This document shows positions 57,604 to 64,000 of a stretch of DNA of 64,000 nucleotides, piece by piece (within the stretch, counting starts at the first letter, position 1; every line of letters starts with the position of its first letter). The stretch lies in the UHGV virus genome UHGV-1375844; one strand, given 5' to 3'. The DNA comes from a virus. The notes beneath the pieces are model-generated. The model did no database searches and had not been told where the DNA came from. It saw only the letters and a list, made by a program, of their open reading frames with translations. The position numbers were made by a program, and so were the translations under genes.

Positions 57604-58131
57604 ATGACGAACATAACTGACATCACCTACGGTATACCTGCAGAAGTCTGGCCGCGGGATTATTCTAACGTCGAGAAGGCACTCATGTTCTGGCGTAAAT
57701 CCCTCATTCCTGTAAGGGTCACGATGGAGGATGGTCAGGTGTTCTGCATGTATGTGCAGGGTCTCATGTCATCCCGCAATAAGGTTGATCTTTGCTCTGC
57801 CCCGTTCGACAAAGAAAATCGTATAAGGCTCCCACTTGAGCGGATCAGCACGATTGAGTCGGGTGTGACAGAAAGTATTGGACACGACTTCAAGGGGCGA
57901 ATCACGATTAACCCCGAATATGTTGATAATCGGCCATCTCGCCGGGACTTCTTCAAAATCTGTCGGCAGGCTCATGCGTCTCAGAAGTCTATAAGGGTGT
58001 ACATGGCGGATGGCCGTGAAATTGAAGGTGTGTCATTAGGCGTTGACGCTTGCCAGGTCACGATCGGCATTGGTGAAGGTCGCAAGATGGTGGTCTTGTT
58101 CGATTGGGTCGAAAGGATTATACCGTTTTAA
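57604..58131 (+). CDS. Hypothetical protein (175 aa)
   Basis: ORF track; 4 nt after the lipoprotein gene. Confidence 0.45.
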   Translation: MTNITDITYGIPAEVWPRDYSNVEKALMFWRKSLIPVRVTMEDGQVFCMYVQGLMSSRNKVDLCSAPFDKENRIRLPLERISTIESGVTESIGHDFKGRITINPEYVDNRPSRRDFFKICRQAHASQKSIRVYMADGREIEGVSLGVDACQVTIGIGEGRKMVVLFDWVERIIPF

Positions 58132-58452: not shown

Positions 58453-59100
58453 ATGTCTAACGTTATCTCTAAAAAAGCTATCATCGACGCTGCTGTAGTT
58501 ATCACTGAAGAGCTTCAGATCAAAGCAAATGAAGCAAGCCAGACACGCGAACAACGCGCTAAAAATGGAACTGCTACCAAAGCAGATAAAGCTAACGAGC
58601 TTGCAGCCACTACTAAACTTGCATACTTCACTAACAACGTATTAAACGCGCTTAAAGATGAAAAATTAGCTGGTGTCTTTTACTACGCGATTAAAGCCAG
58701 CAAGCAAGATCCAGAAGTATTTTTCCGTGAAGCGATGACTAATAGCTACTCTCTCGAAAAGCTGGTTTATCTGGTGAAGTCTATTAAGTCTGGCAAATGT
58801 GTTTATTCAGTCGCTGATATGTCAGGATCTCGCGTATTCGCATTAATCGAAATGATTAATGATGAAATGGAAACTTTTACTAATGGCGCTGTATTCGATT
58901 TAATGAATGAAGCTAAAAAAGCATGTGAGATTAAATTAGACGCTGGCTACACTCAAGCCAATCAGCTTATCAATTTGTGTGAACGTCTGGGACTGGTCGA
59001 GAAGATCAAAGGAATGGGCGCTGCTAAAAACGGATCTCAGCAATATCGCTTTATCAAGAATGATTTTTATAACTATCTGGCTGAAGCGTTCAAAGCGTAA
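58453..59100 (+). CDS. Hypothetical protein (215 aa), AT-rich moron-like gene
   Basis: Preceded by a ~300-bp very AT-rich promoter-like region (58140-58450); followed by a strong terminator. Confidence 0.5.
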   Translation: MSNVISKKAIIDAAVVITEELQIKANEASQTREQRAKNGTATKADKANELAATTKLAYFTNNVLNALKDEKLAGVFYYAIKASKQDPEVFFREAMTNSYSLEKLVYLVKSIKSGKCVYSVADMSGSRVFALIEMINDEMETFTNGAVFDLMNEAKKACEIKLDAGYTQANQLINLCERLGLVEKIKGMGAAKNGSQQYRFIKNDFYNYLAEAFKA

Positions 59101-59356: not shown

Positions 59357-59430
59357 AAAAGCGCCCACTATGGGCGCTTTTTTCGTTTCAGGATCTCCAC
59401 CATAACGCGCCAACAATGGCGCGTTTTCTT
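59357..59430 (+). terminator. Tandem rho-independent terminators
   Basis: aaagcgccca-ctat-gggcgcttttttcg (59357-59382) and aacgcgcc-aacaat-ggcgcgttttctttt (59404-59430). Confidence 0.65.
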
Positions 59431-59859
59431 TTGTCTGGCGTTCACTCATTCACAACAAAAATAAGCTCCATAAAAACGCCACTGCGACGCGTTTTAACGT
59501 GTGGCAATACGTACCCATAGCTAAAACAAAAAAGCGCTCAGAATGCGAGGTGTGGCGTTTTAGTGTATGGCTTATTTTATGCTGTCGTGGGCGTGATCGT
59601 CTGGCGTTATCTGGCGACGTGATCCGCGCCATCCTTCGGGACGTGTCGGCAATAATGGCGTGATCCGTGGGCGCTCGCGTATAGTCTCCACGTTGGCGCA
59701 ACGTGTACGCGCTTACAGTCTCGTTTATTCAGTGATTCATAATCACATAGCGAAAGCTATCCGGATGGCTCAGGGGCTGAAAAGCCCACCAGCACCACCC
59801 CAGCGCCTCTGTGCATTTTCTGGTGTGATTCTGAGCGTCTCCCGCTCGGTTTCTACATA

Positions 59860-59990
59860 GAGGCAAACCCAGCCGTTTCCCGAAAATTCCCTGGCCGTTT
59901 CCCTACGGCTGCCCGAATCGCTCTCTGGCCGTTCCTGAAGTTTTCCCCTGCGGCAGCGGGCGTCCAAAAAGAAAGGGCCGTTTCCAGCCC
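59860..59990. repeat. Iteron-like array 1 (GCCGTTTCC motif, 4 copies)
   Basis: cagccgtttccc, ggccgtttccct, ggccgttcctg (variant), gggccgtttccag at irregular 25-40-bp spacing. Confidence 0.55.
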
Positions 59991-59998
59991 CTCCCCTC

Positions 59999-60481
59999 TC
60001 ACACGCCAGGCAGGATATGAATGCGGTTGCTGACATACATCTCTTTCACGAAGTCCCCGCATGTGACTTTCCATTCACTGACACCGGCTTCATAAACCAC
60101 GTTTTTGCATTTAAGTGCATTGTCAGCGATACGCACACCCTGCGCTGTTGCTTCCTGGTCGGTGAAGTCGAACCCGGATTCAGTTTTGACCCACACGGCA
60201 ATTTGTGTTGCCAGCTCGATGAGTTTTGACTGGCAGAAGCGACCGCGTCGTACCGGGAAGATAAATACCCCGAACCCCGCGGTGGTAACGTAGGCTTTTT
60301 CGAATACGCGTTTATGTCGACGGTTACAGATAATGTTGCTGGCGATCTGCTGCTTCTCTTTCCCTGACAACTCAATGGTCTCATTGCCACGCCAGGCGCC
60401 CAGCACGCTTTTTTCAATGTCAGAGTAAGTCACGGAGATCGTGCCATGCTCGGGAGTGTTCACAGTAGCGATATAGTTCAT
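59999..60481 (-). CDS. Hypothetical early protein (160 aa)
   Basis: ORF track; own promoter-proximal motif upstream. Confidence 0.5.
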   Translation of the reverse strand: MNYIATVNTPEHGTISVTYSDIEKSVLGAWRGNETIELSGKEKQQIASNIICNRRHKRVFEKAYVTTAGFGVFIFPVRRGRFCQSKLIELATQIAVWVKTESGFDFTDQEATAQGVRIADNALKCKNVVYEAGVSEWKVTCGDFVKEMYVSNRIHILPGV

Positions 60482-60493
60482 CGAGATAATCCT

Positions 60494-60517
60494 TTAAACA
60501 ATTTGTTTTCTTGATGG
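60494..60517 (-). promoter_or_regulatory. Conserved promoter-proximal near-palindrome, copy 6
   Basis: ttaaacaatttgttttcttgatgg; on the minus strand follows GATAAT (-10-like) with a TTGGAC -35-like box 16 nt upstream. Confidence 0.5.
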
Positions 60518-60704
60518 TTTAATTATCGCTACGCGTATCAGGCGTCCAAGCGCTCTATTCCGGCATCTGTTTGCCTGAAGGGAGTCAGAGGGTCGTTCGG
60601 TAGCCTGGCGGTAAGAGGTGGGTGTTTTGCCTGATGTGATGAGGTTGGTATATCTGGCGGGCAAGCGGTGCTATCTTGGCCGCAGGTAACTCAGGAGACT
60701 CAAG

Positions 60705-60893
60705 ATGTTAGATAAACTGGATAATCTGCAATTAAGCGAAGAAGAGGCAACGGCTCTGGCCCAGCTCGTCAAACGACTCACCTGGACTGATATGCGAGGC
60801 TGTGCCGTTGACGATGATGAGGCGTATACCATCAGTGATGCGGTCGCCAAATTGCAGAAGAGTCTCGCTGAAGCAGGCTTCGCTCCGCGATAG
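60705..60893 (+). CDS. Hypothetical small protein (62 aa)
   Basis: ORF track; AGGAG RBS. Confidence 0.35.
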   Translation: MLDKLDNLQLSEEEATALAQLVKRLTWTDMRGCAVDDDEAYTISDAVAKLQKSLAEAGFAPR

Positions 60894-60920
60894 GCCACCA
60901 GCAAGGGTGGCCCCGTTCTC

Positions 60921-61202
60921 TTAGTGGAGCAGACCGACGTCGATGGTGTCGCCGGAGTCTGTGATGCGGATCATCAGCATGGCGAAGGCATTTAACGGAT
61001 AGCCTGCGTGCCACTCCGGGAAACGATCGTCTCGCATGAAATCGGCAATGTCATACACGCTGTCCTGAAAACGGAAGAAGCGGGTGGCGCTCTGCTCGTC
61101 GTATTCAACATGATCCATCTCCTGCTGTTCTGCCGGCGACAGGTCCAGCCAGGACTCCAGGTAAACATTTTCAGCTTTAGGGGTAATTGTAAAATCGGTC
61201 AT
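60921..61202 (-). CDS. Hypothetical early acidic protein (93 aa)
   Basis: ORF track; own promoter-proximal motif. Confidence 0.45.
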   Translation of the reverse strand: MTDFTITPKAENVYLESWLDLSPAEQQEMDHVEYDEQSATRFFRFQDSVYDIADFMRDDRFPEWHAGYPLNAFAMLMIRITDSGDTIDVGLLH

Positions 61203-61220
61203 GTGCTTAATCCTCAGTGC

Positions 61221-61244
61221 GTAAACAATTTGTTTTCTTGTTGG
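61221..61244 (-). promoter_or_regulatory. Conserved promoter-proximal near-palindrome, copy 7
   Basis: gtaaacaatttgttttcttgttgg followed by taattatcgc (GATAAT on the minus strand). Confidence 0.5.
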
Positions 61245-61329
61245 TGTAATTATCGCAGTGTGAATAAGGCAGAAAACATTTTGTTATCGGGGGCAAGTAA
61301 GTGGCGCGGGATTCGCGCCACTGGCGGGA

Positions 61330-61722
61330 TTAGGCGAACACGCTTTCAGGGATGTAATCATCAATGAGTGCGCCGGAGTTAATGCGCAAACCGTACTGAC
61401 CCATCCAGGTGCTGTTAGGGTTAAGATCTGAGGTGAACAGCGCGTTCACTTTCGTCATAAGCGATTCGAACATCGTACTATCGACGGTGCGGAAGTAGGC
61501 TTCCAGTTTGAGCAGTAGCGGATCTGATGCGTCGCTAATGTTCTGGTAGCCAATGGCGTATGTGCTCTTATCAGTACCCTTACGCACTAAGGTGCTGGTA
61601 TGTACCTCAGTTCCGGTGGTGTTATCACGCACAACAACGGTCAGTTTGGCAGTGGCTTCGCCGGAGGTGGTCTCAGATGCATAATGCAGATCGAGTACCA
61701 GATTTTCACGTAAAACAGTCAT
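61330..61722 (-). CDS. Hypothetical early protein (130 aa)
   Basis: ORF track. Confidence 0.45.
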   Translation of the reverse strand: MTVLRENLVLDLHYASETTSGEATAKLTVVVRDNTTGTEVHTSTLVRKGTDKSTYAIGYQNISDASDPLLLKLEAYFRTVDSTMFESLMTKVNALFTSDLNPNSTWMGQYGLRINSGALIDDYIPESVFA

Positions 61723-61762
61723 TATCTTCTCCCTGTGTTAGACCCCTTTTATATTATTGTCA

Positions 61763-61778
61763 TAAGTAACTACTTACA
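61763..61778. repeat. Intergenic palindrome family, copy
   Basis: ataagtaactacttac. Confidence 0.45.
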
Positions 61779-61852
61779 ATACAGAGTAGCCAAAAAAGCC
61801 CCGAAGGATGGACGGGGCTGTCGTAAATTCGACTAAACGCTTTTGCACATGG

Positions 61853-62164
61853 TCAGGCTGTGGCTTGAAGAGAGACGCGCTGTATTTCCTGCTGGGCTGC
61901 TTTATTGGCTTCAAGTAATGCCAGCTCAAGCTCCCCTTCTGGCCATATCATTTGTTTGGACACCCATCCTGTTTTCCCCTGGCGTCTGACACTCATCACA
62001 TAGCGCGAGCGGGCGCCATTTTCGAACGTGACAAGTGTCTCCTTGAAGAGCCTGATGGATGTACCGTTTGCGATAACATCAAGGAGAGTCAGTTGCTTCA
62101 GTATTGTTGGCTTGGCCTTTTTTGGCTGCCCAACACTCAGTCTGGAAATCATCCCGATATTCAT
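61853..62164 (-). CDS. Hypothetical early protein (start at internal Met, MNIGMISRLSVGQ)
   Basis: ORF-track frame extends through the promoter motif; ATG at 62164 lies just downstream of motif copy 8. Confidence 0.45.
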   Translation of the reverse strand: MNIGMISRLSVGQPKKAKPTILKQLTLLDVIANGTSIRLFKETLVTFENGARSRYVMSVRRQGKTGWVSKQMIWPEGELELALLEANKAAQQEIQRVSLQATA

Positions 62165-62175
62165 ACACAACTCCG

Positions 62176-62199
62176 TAAACAATTTGTTTTCTTGATGGC
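62176..62199 (-). promoter_or_regulatory. Conserved promoter-proximal near-palindrome, copy 8
   Basis: gtaaacaatttgttttcttgatgg; TATTAT -10-like hexamer on the minus strand. Confidence 0.5.
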
Positions 62200-62304
62200 G
62201 TAAATAATACCAGTGTGAAAACGGTGACAAAGCGTGTCGTTACGGCGCTGCGCTGCCCCGGAGGTGGCAAACAACAAAAAGCCACCGTGCTGGTGGCCTC
62301 ACTC

Positions 62305-62523
62305 TTAATCTTCTTCGTCCGGGAACTCGCTGTGTACCGCGTCCACCAGCTGCCGCTTTTCATCTTCACTCAGCAGGTGCCAGATATCCTTCCCTTTGGG
62401 CGATTCCCCTTCTGCCGGGACGAACGACCATAGCTTGCGGTGCAGTTCCGGCCCTACAGCATCCAGACATTCGGCCAGCGAATCCACACTCCACACCTCA
62501 ACCAGCACAGGCATCTTAATCAT
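62305..62523 (-). CDS. Hypothetical early acidic protein (start at internal Met, MIKMPVLVEVW)
   Basis: ORF track 62305..62601; internal ATG 62523 has a GAGGG RBS. Confidence 0.4.
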   Translation of the reverse strand: MIKMPVLVEVWSVDSLAECLDAVGPELHRKLWSFVPAEGESPKGKDIWHLLSEDEKRQLVDAVHSEFPDEED

Positions 62524-62533
62524 CTCTTCGCCC

Positions 62534-62752
62534 TCACTTCGTTTCTGACGTTGTGCAGTTCCACGCGACGGACATTGGGCTGTCCTCGATATGGAAATCA
62601 AACGTCCCTTCTCTGTACCCTTCAGAGATAAGCGTCGCTACGCGAGTAGTGACATCCTGGGAACGGATAACGTCATCGAGGGAGATCTGGAGTTCGTCAG
62701 TGCATGTCTCTTCTCCGCAAAGGGTGATGCTGATATTAAGATGCTTGTACAT
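62534..62752 (-). CDS. Hypothetical early protein (72 aa)
   Basis: ORF track; promoter-proximal motif upstream. Confidence 0.45.
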   Translation of the reverse strand: MYKHLNISITLCGEETCTDELQISLDDVIRSQDVTTRVATLISEGYREGTFDFHIEDSPMSVAWNCTTSETK

Positions 62753-62767
62753 GTGTTTCTCCTTTGT

Positions 62768-62790
62768 CTAAACACGTTGTTTTCTTATTG
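62768..62790 (-). promoter_or_regulatory. Conserved promoter-proximal near-palindrome, copy 9 (variant AAACACGTTGTTTTCT)
   Basis: ctaaacacgttgttttcttattgg followed by ttattatcgc. Confidence 0.45.
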
Positions 62791-62897
62791 GTGTTATTAT
62801 CGCAATAAGAAAACGGGGAAAAAGCATTCATTAAAGGCTGATGTGTTTGTGTCGATTTATTGCTATGTATGTATCTGGCTAACTCAGAGGGAATGTG

Positions 62898-63140
62898 ATG
62901 AGCACTAACAACTACACAGACGGCTACTTCAGCATCGATGTCGAGAGAGGCGAACTGCTACATGGCGGCGCCTCTGTTGGACGCATTATTCTGGTCAACG
63001 GCCAGATTTACACAGAGCTGGACGATAGCAGTGCAGACACACCTGTCGTCTCCGGTCCCTTCGGGACAAGAGAGGAGGCGTTAGATGATTTGTGGGACAA
63101 CAGGGATGATGCAAATCAGGGCAGCGAGATTTTCGAATAA
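62898..63140 (+). CDS. Hypothetical acidic protein (80 aa)
   Basis: ORF track starts at GTG 62895; ATG at 62898 with GAGGGA RBS. Confidence 0.4.
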   Translation: MSTNNYTDGYFSIDVERGELLHGGASVGRIILVNGQIYTELDDSSADTPVVSGPFGTREEALDDLWDNRDDANQGSEIFE

Positions 63141-63289
63141 ACGTCCTCGGCAATTTCGCCACCAAAACCCTTAACCCTTTACACTAGCTCTGGCTTCCCG
63201 ACATGAGCGTGCGAAGCTAGTCTGGTCTCAACACTCAATTGCGGGACTCACAAGTTCCCGCAATATTCAGGTTAACGAGAAGCAAGACA

Positions 63290-63450
63290 CACTCCCGCAG
63301 CGCTCCCTCGCTCTTTACCGGGATGCATCCGTTTCCTGACCTGAAGCCAGCCTTTTCCCGGTTCGCATGACGGGATTCTCCCCGTTTCCCTGAAAAACCC
63401 AGCCGTTTCCCTGCGGCGATGCTCCCGTTTTCCAGTAGGGATGCAGCCTT
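63290..63450. repeat. Iteron-like array 2 (CCGTTTCC motif, 5-6 copies)
   Basis: atccgtttcctg, agccttttcccgg, ccccgtttccctg, agccgtttccctg, cccgttttccag, agccttttctctg. Confidence 0.55.
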
Positions 63451-63499
63451 TTCTCTGGATGGCCCGCAGGTTGACCGTAGGGGTGGGGAGGGACGTTAC

Positions 63500-64000
63500 G
63501 GGAGATAAAATCATGGCTTGAATAAATACGGGAAAAGTAGCGATCCCCCTCTTCCCCTTCCCACTTATACCTCCAGTTAAATCTCTGCGTTCCTCTCTCC
63601 TTTAATCGAATCTGTCTTCCCTCCGATAAGGCTCAATACGATGACTACCTCTGTACGTGAAATGGGTGGTTCGTACTCTCTGCCGGCATATGTCTTTTTG
63701 CGCTTCTTGAGGCTGTTCTTCTATGCGTTTTCTTCTGGGTTGTTTTCGTCTCTTTGGGTGTTCTTCTTCTCTGGGTATTGAGTAATGGCAGGTGTGCTTT
63801 CCTCTTCGTTTACTTGCTGAGAAGGAAGTGTGGGGAATGGCAGTAGGGCGCTTTAGTTGTTCTCTGCATATCAAGTAATAGCGTTCCCTGCTTTTCAGGA
63901 CTTTGCGCTCTCTTCAGGGGTAATGGTGGGTAAGTAAGATTGCAACGGCTCCTGTTCTGGTCTGGGTTTGCCCGGGGTTGCATTCTGAGCGCTGTTCTCT
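63500..64000. other. ORF-free pyrimidine-rich (T/C-skewed) region at the window end
   Basis: Strong T+C excess on the plus strand; no RBS-supported ORF; follows iteron array 2. Confidence 0.4.

What the first reader, a model, noticed from the sequence alone, without database searches (positions are those of the whole stretch)
59860..63450. Two iteron-like arrays of CCGTTTCC repeats flanking the early-gene block
Arrays at 59860-59990 (4 copies) and 63290-63450 (5-6 copies) carry the same 8-9-bp motif at irregular 25-40-bp spacing in ORF-free DNA. Iteron arrays of this kind mark replication origins or packaging and terminus regions in phages and plasmids. Here they bracket a 3-kb block of promoter-driven early genes.
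Basis: partly seen in the sequence, partly recalled or inferred. Interest (0 to 1): 0.55.

Follow-up and report, generated by a model that had tools for sequence, protein, structure and literature searches.

The report
Paired protein-binding repeat arrays, SSU5-type phage-plasmid
Two clusters of a short DNA motif, spaced two helical turns apart and almost unchanged across a large family of phage-plasmids of enteric bacteria, flank a variable island of small genes. They are most likely docking sites for an uncharacterised DNA-binding protein encoded next door, and they are not the plasmid's known replication origin.

Summary
The window is an SSU5/pHCM2-type phage-plasmid. CCGTTTCC occurs 11 times against 2.3 expected, and six exact plus four variant copies lie in two ORF-free arrays (59869-59985 and 63325-63454), all on the + strand. 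Spacing is not irregular: 22 bp dominates, which is iteron-like phasing. The motif copies are 97-99% conserved where flanks have diverged to about 40% identity. The two-array layout, 1.5-4.2 kb apart, persists in relatives with 37-40% GC. The arrays are not the plasmid origin: the closest relative has repA about 28 kb away, flanked by unrelated iterons (AACCACTRTAGAGAGC). No other array exists in the 106.6-kb element. Y. pestis pMT1 has lost array 2, so that array is dispensable for plasmid maintenance. RNA-level readings got no support. A narrowly distributed 215-aa protein (58453-59100) with a predicted C-terminal winged helix is always encoded just upstream of array 1 and is the best candidate binder. 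My best guess is a paired cis site for a phage-phase function, namely a lytic origin plus enhancer (about 0.35). The borders of a T5-like terminal repeat or packaging signal come next (about 0.2). Neither can be settled without wet-lab or read-level data. The arrays appear to be undescribed.

The parts
59869..59909 (+). Array 1 core pair: R1 CCAGCCGTTTCCCGAAAA (motif at 59873) and R2 CTGGCCGTTTCCCTACGGC (motif at 59895), 22 bp apart
   Evidence: 22.7 and 21.1 bits. Column identity is 0.99 and 0.97 over 11 non-redundant relatives, against 0.69 in the 130-bp left flank.
59925..59955 (+). Array 1 degenerate copy R3: GGCCGTTCC (one T short, motif at 59929), followed by TTTTCCCCTGCGGC
   Evidence: Relatives carry GGCCGTTTC...TTTCCCTGCGGC at the same place.
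59966..59999 (-). Terminator-like hairpin of the 160-aa gene. Its loop carries the fourth motif copy (CCGTTTCC at 59978-59985 on the + strand).
   Evidence: The fold gives a long stem followed by a U-run on the - strand. Stem sequences differ between relatives (GGGC/GCCC, GGGGC/GCCCC, GGGCG/CGCCC) while the loop keeps CGTTTCC.
63325..63454 (+). Array 2: six copies at 63329, 63351, 63382, 63403, 63425 and 63447 (CCGTTTCC x3, CCTTTTCC, CCGTTTTCC, CCTTTTCT), spaced 22, 31, 21, 22, 22 bp
   Evidence: Copy number varies among relatives through in-register unit deletions (L025, L078, L014).
63473..63571 (+). Conserved unique element next to array 2: GACCGTAGGGG (an inverted partial copy of the R2-type repeat) .. 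TTACGGGAGAT .. TTGAATAAATACGG .. GCGATCCCCCTC .. CCCACTTATAC
   Evidence: It is alignable in all relatives, including those with 37-48% GC. No sigma-70 promoter match. No consensus RNA structure.
58453..59100 (+). Gene for the 215-aa protein ('p215'): N-terminal helical bundle plus a C-terminal winged helix-turn-helix. Candidate binder of the arrays.
59999..63140 (.). Island of eight small genes between the arrays. Six are on the - strand and two on the + strand; four of the - strand genes have a 55-nt conserved upstream unit.
   Evidence: all of unknown function; one is DUF7706. Content and size vary among relatives, with an inter-array distance of 1.5-4.2 kb.
59357..59425 (+). Two intrinsic terminators that close the helicase-p215 operon about 450 bp before array 1
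   Evidence: L002 11858-11882 and 11905-11926, equal to window 59357-59381 and 59404-59425. Conserved.
63238..63263 (+). Hairpin after the 81-aa + strand gene, just before array 2
   Evidence: Read from the sequence. Conserved, with changes.

Best explanation
The two arrays are DNA-level binding sites (iterons) for one sequence-specific protein of the element itself. The most likely binder is the 215-aa winged-helix protein encoded just upstream of array 1.

Proposed mechanism: copies phased at 22 bp put all sites on one face of the helix, so several protein units can bind cooperatively. The strong array (array 2, six sites plus an inverted half-site and a conserved unique element) and the weak array (array 1, two to three sites) would be bridged by the same protein, looping out the 3.3-kb island.

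I propose that this pair serves the phage phase of the life cycle and not plasmid maintenance. The most likely role is a second, lytic origin with a distal enhancer, as in P4 ori/crr or R6K.

What is shown: the arrays, their phasing, their conservation, their uniqueness in the genome, their difference from the RepA iterons, and their synteny with p215.

What is inferred: that p215 binds them, that the arrays pair, and that the function is replication.
For: - **Non-random, unique arrays.** They are same-strand and occur nowhere else in the element.
- **Phasing.** The 22-bp period dominates across 14 non-redundant relatives.
- **Conservation.** Motif columns are 0.97-0.99 identical, against 0.69 in flanks that fall to 38-41% pairwise identity.
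- **Depth of the architecture.** It is kept in 894 plasmid records of ten or more genera and in relatives with 37-40% GC, where p215 is only 31% identical.
- **Copy number.** It changes by whole units, as in iteron arrays.
- **Not the RepA replicon.** repA is about 28 kb away, with different iterons at 21-bp spacing on both sides.
- **pMT1.** It keeps p215 and array 1 but has lost array 2 together with a large stretch of neighbouring DNA. Array 2 is therefore not needed for plasmid replication or partition.
- **Location.** Both arrays sit just outside terminators, in untranscribed DNA.
- **Candidate binder.** p215 has a predicted winged helix. Its putative recognition helix is conserved when the rest of the protein is not, which matches an unchanging DNA motif. 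It shares an operon with an SF2 helicase.
- **No RNA structure signal**.
- **Context.** No lytic origin has been reported for this family in the papers I could search.
Against: - No AT-rich unwinding region is consistently next to either array. It is present only in the low-GC relatives, and the arrays themselves are GC-rich islands.
- I recognised no DnaA box when reading the array flanks by eye. No scan was run.
- p215 resembles generic ArsR/MarR-type winged helices, not known initiators. It has no sequence match in the PDB or in the family libraries.
- The element's DnaB-like helicase, primase and polymerase genes lie about 40-60 kb away.
- GC skew is uninformative.
- Binding of p215 to the motif is untested. 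The motif never changes, so no co-variation test was possible.
- Array 1 has only two strong copies.
Confidence: 0.35

Rival explanations
1. Packaging signals or borders of a long direct terminal repeat. In this reading the island is a T5/SPO1-like first-entering 'pre-early' module, present once in the plasmid and twice in virion DNA. The two same-orientation arrays mark where terminase (or a helper such as p215) defines the repeat ends. The ORF-free repeat-rich DNA right of array 2 would correspond to the T5 injection-stop region.
For: - The arrays are directly oriented at both borders of a block of small genes, four of which have their own conserved upstream unit; terminators or hairpins were seen after four of the block genes.
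- About 1.6 kb of ORF-free DNA with several repeat families lies next to array 2. This parallels the annotated T5 FST and iss regions.
- T5 has an array of TGTGCAAATCCGAC copies across the inner end of its terminal repeat.
- The large terminase is about 26% identical over 91% of its length to T5-like terminases.
- The map position is the junction between the packaging genes and the nucleotide-metabolism genes.
- From my own knowledge, T7 has arrays of short repeats (SRL/SRR) flanking its terminal repeat.
Against: - No physical ends are known for any SSU5-type virion. The library searches found no paper linking SSU5 to virion ends.
- The terminase is at least as similar to Jersey-like/Kagunavirus terminases, which from my own knowledge package by headful.
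- terS/TerL lie 8-12 kb away.
- The block genes share their 18-nt upstream element with replication, partition and late operons, so they are not a distinct temporal class.
- T5 shows no matching array at its outer repeat border.
- No block protein resembles T5 pre-early proteins.
- The clustering of contig ends nearby is explained by a cargo/IS hotspot.
Confidence: 0.2
2. Regulatory or insulating operator clusters. A repressor-like protein (p215 or another) binds both arrays and loops the DNA, as lambda CI does between OL and OR. This would silence or insulate the variable island, or block read-through from the flanking operons.
For: - Two clusters of phased sites lie 1.5-4.2 kb apart and flank a gene island whose content varies while the arrays stay constant.
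- The arrays lie at the convergence of transcription units.
- The best structural matches of p215's C-terminal part are transcription-factor winged helices.
Against: - Neither array overlaps a recognisable promoter.
- The block genes already carry their own palindromic 18-nt operator-like element.
- The sites are direct repeats, not palindromes.
- Array 1 lies downstream of terminators on both sides.
Confidence: 0.15
3. Extra partition (centromere) sites scattered in the genome, as in phage-plasmid N15, and bound by a centromere-binding protein.
For: Phased direct repeats are typical of type Ib, II and III centromeres. The element is a low-copy plasmid with a ParA-type ATPase.
Against: - The par operon is about 40 kb away, and its control region has the 18-nt palindromic element and no CCGTTTCC.
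- Its small partner protein looks, from its sequence, like a ribbon-helix-helix protein (no tool confirmed this); from my own knowledge these usually bind 4-8-bp contiguous units.
- pMT1 is stably kept without array 2.
- The motif is invariant although plasmid modules vary in this family (PMC7969092).
Confidence: 0.07
4. RNA-level element: a CsrA-titrating RNA (GGA motifs on the - strand), or a C-rich Rho-loading site on the + strand.
For: The - strand reads (C/A)GGGAAACGG, with GGA every 22 nt. The + strand is C-rich and G-poor.
Against: - There is no promoter/terminator pair around the arrays. On the - strand, array 1 lies beyond a strong terminator, and on the + strand it lies beyond two.
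- Folding z-scores are about 0, except -2.5 for array 2 on the + strand.
- There is no Rfam match.
- Consensus structures are weak, with only small local hairpins.
- Ten to twelve invariant bases at fixed 22-bp spacing exceed what CsrA or Rho needs.
- E. coli-type relatives have no + strand gene feeding array 2.
Confidence: 0.04
5. Auxiliary iterons of the plasmid initiator RepA (copy-number control by handcuffing, like P1 incA), or a chance or relic duplication.
For: Two arrays flanking genes recall P1 incC/incA. The arrays are paralogous to each other (family D6).
Against: - RepA iterons have a different sequence, and none scores in the array region of this plasmid.
- The motif is conserved across relatives, and the paper read (PMC7969092) reports that plasmid-type gene repertoires vary within the SSU5 supergroup; I did not compare the repA genes of these relatives.
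- Conservation statistics exclude chance.
Confidence: 0.03

Closest known systems
Satellite phage P4 ori / crr (type I iterons TGTTCACC bound by the alpha protein); the R6K gamma-alpha/beta origins are similar
   Same: An 8-bp core motif is repeated in two separate clusters a few kb apart on one replicon. One cluster is richer than the other. Function depends on one protein bridging both. (This comparison rests on my knowledge of P4 and R6K.)
   Different: No primase-helicase initiator is encoded beside the arrays. The motif is unrelated. All copies are in one orientation. No AT-rich region is consistently adjacent. Replication from here has not been shown.
P1/RepFIB-type plasmid origin (iterons on both sides of repA)
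   Same: Direct repeats phased at 21-22 bp, in two arrays that flank genes.
   Different: This element has exactly that system elsewhere, with iteron AACCACTRTAGAGAGC around repA. The CCGTTTCC arrays share neither sequence nor location with it.
Phage T5 first-step-transfer region and injection-stop signal (and the T7 SRL/SRR repeats beside the terminal repeat)
   Same: A block of small genes, four of them with a shared conserved upstream unit, lies next to about 1-1.6 kb of ORF-free DNA that carries same-orientation short repeats at variable spacing. The large terminases are distantly related, at 26% identity.
   Different: T5 has repeats only at the inner end of its terminal repeat, and its motif is unrelated. 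No terminal repeat is known for SSU5-type virions. No block protein is homologous to a T5 pre-early protein.
Lambda OL/OR operator clusters with CI-mediated looping
   Same: Two clusters of sites about 23 bp apart, separated by a few kb, flank a gene block. (From my own knowledge.)
   Different: Lambda's sites are palindromes that overlap promoters. Here the sites are direct repeats with no promoter detected.

Membership tests
Iteron origin of the resident RepA (IncFIB/P1-type) replicon | Repeats lie next to or flank the rep gene | tested here: not met
   In the 98%-identical plasmid, repA is at record 1-1056 and the arrays are at about record 74.2 and 77.6 kb.
Iteron origin of the resident RepA (IncFIB/P1-type) replicon | Same sequence as the initiator's proven or predicted iterons | tested here: not met
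   The repA-flanking repeats are AACCACTRTAGAGAGC at 21-bp spacing. The matrix built from them scores nothing in the array region of this plasmid or its close relatives. The CCGTTTCC matrix scores nothing near repA.
Iteron-type origin in general | Several same-orientation repeats phased at about two helical turns | tested here: met
   22 bp in 32 of 57 intervals. The other intervals are 31 bp or sums of 22 and 31.
Iteron-type origin in general | Adjacent AT-rich unwinding element and host-factor boxes (DnaA, IHF) | tested here: not met
   60-bp AT profiles show no AT-rich peak beside the arrays in the window or in L103, and one only in the relatives with 37-40% GC. I saw no good DnaA or IHF consensus when reading the sequence.
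Iteron-type origin in general | Cognate initiator encoded nearby and binding the repeats | not testable with these tools
   The candidate p215 (winged helix) is always 0.5-1.4 kb upstream. Binding is untested.
Partition centromere (type Ib / II / III) | Located in or next to the par operon and bound by its adaptor protein | tested here: not met
   The ParA-type gene and its 117-aa partner are at L003 33056-34080, about 40 kb away. Their upstream DNA lacks the motif.
Partition centromere (type Ib / II / III) | Needed for stable plasmid inheritance | tested here: inconclusive
   pMT1 of Y. pestis lacks array 2 but keeps array 1.
Terminase recognition site (pac/cos) or terminal-repeat border | Virion DNA ends map at the site | not testable with these tools
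   No read data were available, and no report was found. No phage record shows the block twice.
Terminase recognition site (pac/cos) or terminal-repeat border | Large terminase belongs to a clade with a known packaging mode | tested here: inconclusive
   The terminase is about 26% identical both to T5-like packagers (long terminal repeat) and to Jersey-like/Kagunavirus ones. Its best solved match is the P74-26 ATPase domain.
Structured or sponge non-coding RNA (for example CsrB-like) | Own promoter and terminator, conserved hairpins, covariation | tested here: not met

The most novel reading that the evidence does not exclude
p215 and the CCGTTTCC arrays form a previously unrecognised cis/trans module that defines the phage-phase 'start' of SSU5-type phage-plasmids. 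It would be either a new class of lytic origin run by a new initiator family, or the borders of a T5-like terminal repeat / first-entering module in a temperate phage-plasmid. The second reading would make these elements the first plasmid prophages known to package that way. Because the arrays bracket the family's variable island, they would also be the fixed anchors for exchange of small accessory genes.
Probability: 0.3. Interest if true: 0.7.

Novelty: new variant of a known kind. Interest (0 to 1): 0.5.

Why it matters
SSU5/pHCM2/pMT1-type phage-plasmids are common in Klebsiella, E. coli, Enterobacter, Salmonella and Yersinia: 894 plasmid records matched this region. They also carry resistance genes (PMC9600943). 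Their plasmid replicon is known. How they replicate lytically, how their DNA is cut for packaging, and what holds their conserved backbone together around variable islands are not known.

A deeply conserved pair of binding arrays with a dedicated, family-specific DNA-binding protein gives a concrete and cheap handle on those questions. EMSA, ChIP, array deletions and read-end analysis would all address it. The module could also serve as a typing marker, or as a target for curing or blocking these elements.

Tried and rejected
- **GC and AT skew over the reconstructed 106.6-kb plasmid.** The skew follows gene strand only and gives no origin or terminus signal.
- **Rfam at permissive threshold.** Only sub-threshold terminator-like hits, away from the arrays.
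- **Single-strand folding and RNAalifold.** No significant or conserved structure. In one search I gave wrong coordinates for L013. One search repeats the test on clean alignments.
- **Sigma-70 scan.** No promoter in or beside the arrays.
- **Contig ends as a proxy for physical ends.** Twelve of 80 IMG/VR contigs break 5.5-7.3 kb downstream of p215. The breaks lie beyond the conserved ORF-free DNA, where homology between relatives ends. I read this as a cargo/IS hotspot, not as termini.
- **Records with '2 places' of the block.** CP044370.1 is an ordinary circular plasmid, not a terminal duplication.
- **T5 comparison.** There are repeats at the inner repeat border only, and no protein homology.
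- **p160 (59999-60481) as the binder.** It is absent from the distant relatives that keep the arrays.
- **Genome contigs pattern scan.** The pattern was too loose for 596 Gb. Almost all hits were chance, and only the Kluyvera contigs were relevant.
- **Literature.** Nothing was found on these arrays, on a lytic origin, or on virion ends in this family. Two papers could not be opened.
- **Sigma-54, OmpR, NarL, MuA-end and LexA motif resemblances.** I considered these by eye and dropped them because spacing or key bases do not fit.

Full report
**What the window is.** The region 59500-64000 is 98% identical to plasmids of Salmonella and Enterobacter, and 83% identical to Salmonella phage SSU5. 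The distant search over 59700-63600 matched 894 plasmid records in Klebsiella, Escherichia, Enterobacter, Salmonella, Yersinia (pMT1), Citrobacter, Cronobacter and other genera. The window therefore comes from an SSU5/pHCM2-type phage-plasmid. For everything beyond the window I used the complete 106,569-bp relative NZ_CP030187.1 (loci L002-L004; window 59500 corresponds to record 73789).

**Check of the observation.**
- CCGTTTCC occurs 11 times against 2.27 expected, and no shuffle reaches 11.
- With the variants that relatives show at the same positions, array 1 has four copies (59873, 59895, 59929, 59978). Array 2 has six copies (63329, 63351, 63382, 63403, 63425, 63447).
- Six copies within 170 bp was never reached in 300 simulations, where the maximum was 4.
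- A 16-nt matrix (consensus CCAGCCGTTTCCCTGn) scores 15-23 bits only in the arrays. Nothing else in the window exceeds 11.7 bits, and nothing else in the rest of the 106.6-kb plasmid exceeds 12.7 bits.
Array 2 runs 22, 31, 21, 22, 22 bp. Over 14 non-redundant relatives, 22 bp accounts for 32 of 57 intervals and 31 bp for 8, and the rest are mostly sums of these two. That is two or three helical turns, so all sites lie on one face of the DNA.

**Anatomy.**
- Array 1 lies where two transcription units converge. The + strand operon (SF2 helicase, 92-aa, lipoprotein, FljA-like, 215-aa and 67-aa genes) ends with two strong terminators at 59357-59425.
- The - strand 160-aa gene ends at 59999 with a hairpin whose loop is the fourth motif copy. 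The stem differs between relatives while the loop stays the same.
- Array 2 follows the hairpin of the 81-aa + strand gene. After it comes a roughly 100-bp unique element: GACCGTAGGGG .. TTGAATAAATACGG .. CTTATAC. This element is conserved in every relative.
- Its first part is an inverted partial copy of the R2-type repeat (CCGTAGGG is the reverse complement of CCCTACGG).
- To the right lie about 1.6 kb of ORF-free DNA with other repeat families.
- The two arrays are paralogous. In the divergent relatives (L103, L071, L028) both start with a CTATAC(C/A)G-like box followed by CCGTTTCCCGAAAA...CCGTT; in the window the boxes have diverged.

**Conservation.**
- In 11 non-redundant array 1 sequences, the two core repeats are 0.99 and 0.97 identical per column. 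The 130-bp left flank is 0.69 identical, and it falls to 0.38-0.41 pairwise identity in the divergent group.
- The two-array layout is kept while the island between the arrays ranges from 1.5 to 4.2 kb with changing gene content.
- Array 2 gains and loses whole units.
- Relatives with 37-40% GC still have CCGTTTCCCGAAA arrays 3.4-4.1 kb apart, plus the TTGAAnAAATACGG...CTTATAC element. In these relatives the neighbouring helicase is 60% identical and the 215-aa protein only 31% identical.

**What it is not.**
- *Plasmid origin.* repA is about 28 kb away. It is flanked by two upstream sets and one downstream set of AACCACTRTAGAGAGC iterons at 21-bp spacing, with GATC clusters. That is a P1/RepFIB-type layout. 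Neither matrix finds the other's sites. A paper on related IncpKPHS1 plasmids likewise places the predicted iterons beside repA (PMC6735626).
- *par centromere.* The ParA-type gene and its small partner are about 40 kb away, with a different control element.
- *RNA.* There is no Rfam hit. Folding z-scores are near zero, apart from -2.5 for array 2 on the + strand. No meaningful consensus structure emerges. Both arrays lie beyond terminators.
- *Needed for plasmid maintenance.* pMT1 keeps array 1 and the upstream operon but has lost array 2. So at least array 2 is not needed for plasmid maintenance.

**Candidate binder.**
- The 215-aa gene (58453-59100) always lies 0.5-1.4 kb upstream of array 1, even in the most distant relatives. 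The 160-aa gene next to array 1 is missing from those relatives.
- The family is tiny: 23 clusters among 1.84 billion representatives, all of this element type. It has no Pfam, NCBIfam or PDB sequence match.
- The segment D..GYTQxNQ...CERLGL stays conserved at 24-32% overall identity. That fits a DNA motif that never changes.
- This evidence is circumstantial. Binding has not been tested.

**Function.** Sequence analysis cannot decide the function.

For a lytic origin with an enhancer:
- the arrays have iteron phasing, and there is an inverted half-site;
- a winged-helix gene and a helicase lie alongside;
- the two-site layout resembles P4 ori/crr;
- the arrays are independent of the plasmid module;
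- no lytic origin is known for this family.

Against a lytic origin:
- no consistent AT-rich element is adjacent;
- no initiator-like homology was found;
- the replisome genes lie far away;
- the GC skew is uninformative.

For a packaging or terminal-repeat role:
- the layout resembles the T5 FST/iss region;
- the large terminase is distantly related to T5-like terminases;
- the arrays sit at the junction of the late and early gene modules.

Against a packaging or terminal-repeat role:
- the terminase is equally similar to Jersey-like/Kagunavirus terminases, which from my own knowledge package by headful;
- the terminase genes are 8-12 kb away;
- the block genes share their upstream element with other operons;
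- no data on virion ends exist.

My estimates are:
| Reading | Probability |
|---|---|
| Lytic origin plus enhancer | about 0.35 |
| Packaging signal or terminal-repeat border | about 0.2 |
| Looping or insulating operators | about 0.15 |
| Centromere | about 0.07 |
| RNA element | about 0.04 |
| RepA-related or relic | about 0.03 |

The more general statement is that these are protein-binding arrays under strong selection, specific to this element family and distinct from the RepA iterons. I hold that at about 0.85.

**Novelty.** I found no description of these arrays or of p215 in the searchable literature. The kind of feature, phased binding-site arrays, is familiar. What appears to be new is the motif, the candidate protein family, and the paired arrangement around a variable island in a clinically widespread phage-plasmid family.

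Noticed in passing
window 2244, 16764, 19826, 51635, 51660, 60495, 61222, 62176, 62769 (all - strand): An 18-nt near-palindromic element, AAGAAAACAAnTTGTTTA, occurs 9 times against 0.23 expected. It precedes the CobT-like, DnaB-helicase, parA and terS/TerL operons and four genes of the island. It looks like an element-wide operator or promoter class for one global regulator. The four island copies are part of a 55-nt repeated upstream unit.
   Followed up: partly
whole plasmid; window 59786(-), 60895(-), 62289(+), 62343(-): Chi (GCTGGTGG) is strongly over-represented. There are 27 copies in 106.6 kb (8 on the + strand, 19 on the - strand), against about 1-2 per strand expected. A local cluster surrounds the island, partly inside terminator stems. 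E. coli and Klebsiella relatives carry a Chi inside array 1.
   Followed up: partly
window 63600-64000 and L002 16150-17295; also window 60590-60630: The ORF-free DNA of about 1.6 kb right of array 2 has further repeat families. TAATGGC occurs about 5-6 times. GGTAGCCTGGnGGnAAGAGGTGGGT occurs 3 times, with a fourth copy inside the island. There are also two operator-like TTGTTTTCT inverted repeats.
   Followed up: partly
about L002 17060 onward (just outside the window's right end): Homology between relatives stops here. Twelve of 80 IMG/VR contigs break 5.5-7.3 kb downstream of p215, against about 1.4 expected. This looks like a cargo or IS insertion hotspot. SSU5 and Klebsiella relatives have a gene of about 400 aa of unknown function there, which this plasmid lacks.
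   Followed up: partly
window 59590-59670: There are three copies of CGTGATCCG (each with a GATC Dam site) in the ORF-free DNA left of array 1. They are conserved in SSU5, pMT1 and Klebsiella relatives, and less so in E. coli relatives.
   Followed up: no
window 57604-58131 (+): A full-length homologue of FljA, the repressor of phase-1 flagellin (PF03614, E 2.7e-89), is encoded in the helicase-p215 operon. This could be host flagellar control by the phage-plasmid.
   Followed up: no
L004 18023-18534 and L003 1058-1616 (outside the window): The RepA origin has at least 24 iterons (AACCACTRTAGAGAGC). Two sets lie upstream at 21-bp spacing, with GATC clusters. One set lies downstream in both orientations at about 40-bp spacing.
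   Followed up: yes
L103 6775 and 6878; L028 7199 and 7303: In the divergent relatives, an inverted pair of 17-mers resembling this plasmid's RepA iterons lies about 100 bp right of the conserved element beside array 2. It may link the plasmid replicon to this region.
   Followed up: no
L116 7105-7240: In a relative with 40% GC, five AT-rich repeats of about 17 bp (TTCTCAAATAAGGnnGG) lie directly left of a five-copy, 33-bp-period array 1. This origin-like arrangement is not seen in the window itself.
   Followed up: partly
window 60705-60893 (+): One island gene is a DUF7706 protein (E 1.3e-28). Its DNA alone matches unrelated 26-57-kb plasmids (hits H82-H86), which suggests that single island genes move between replicons.
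   Followed up: no
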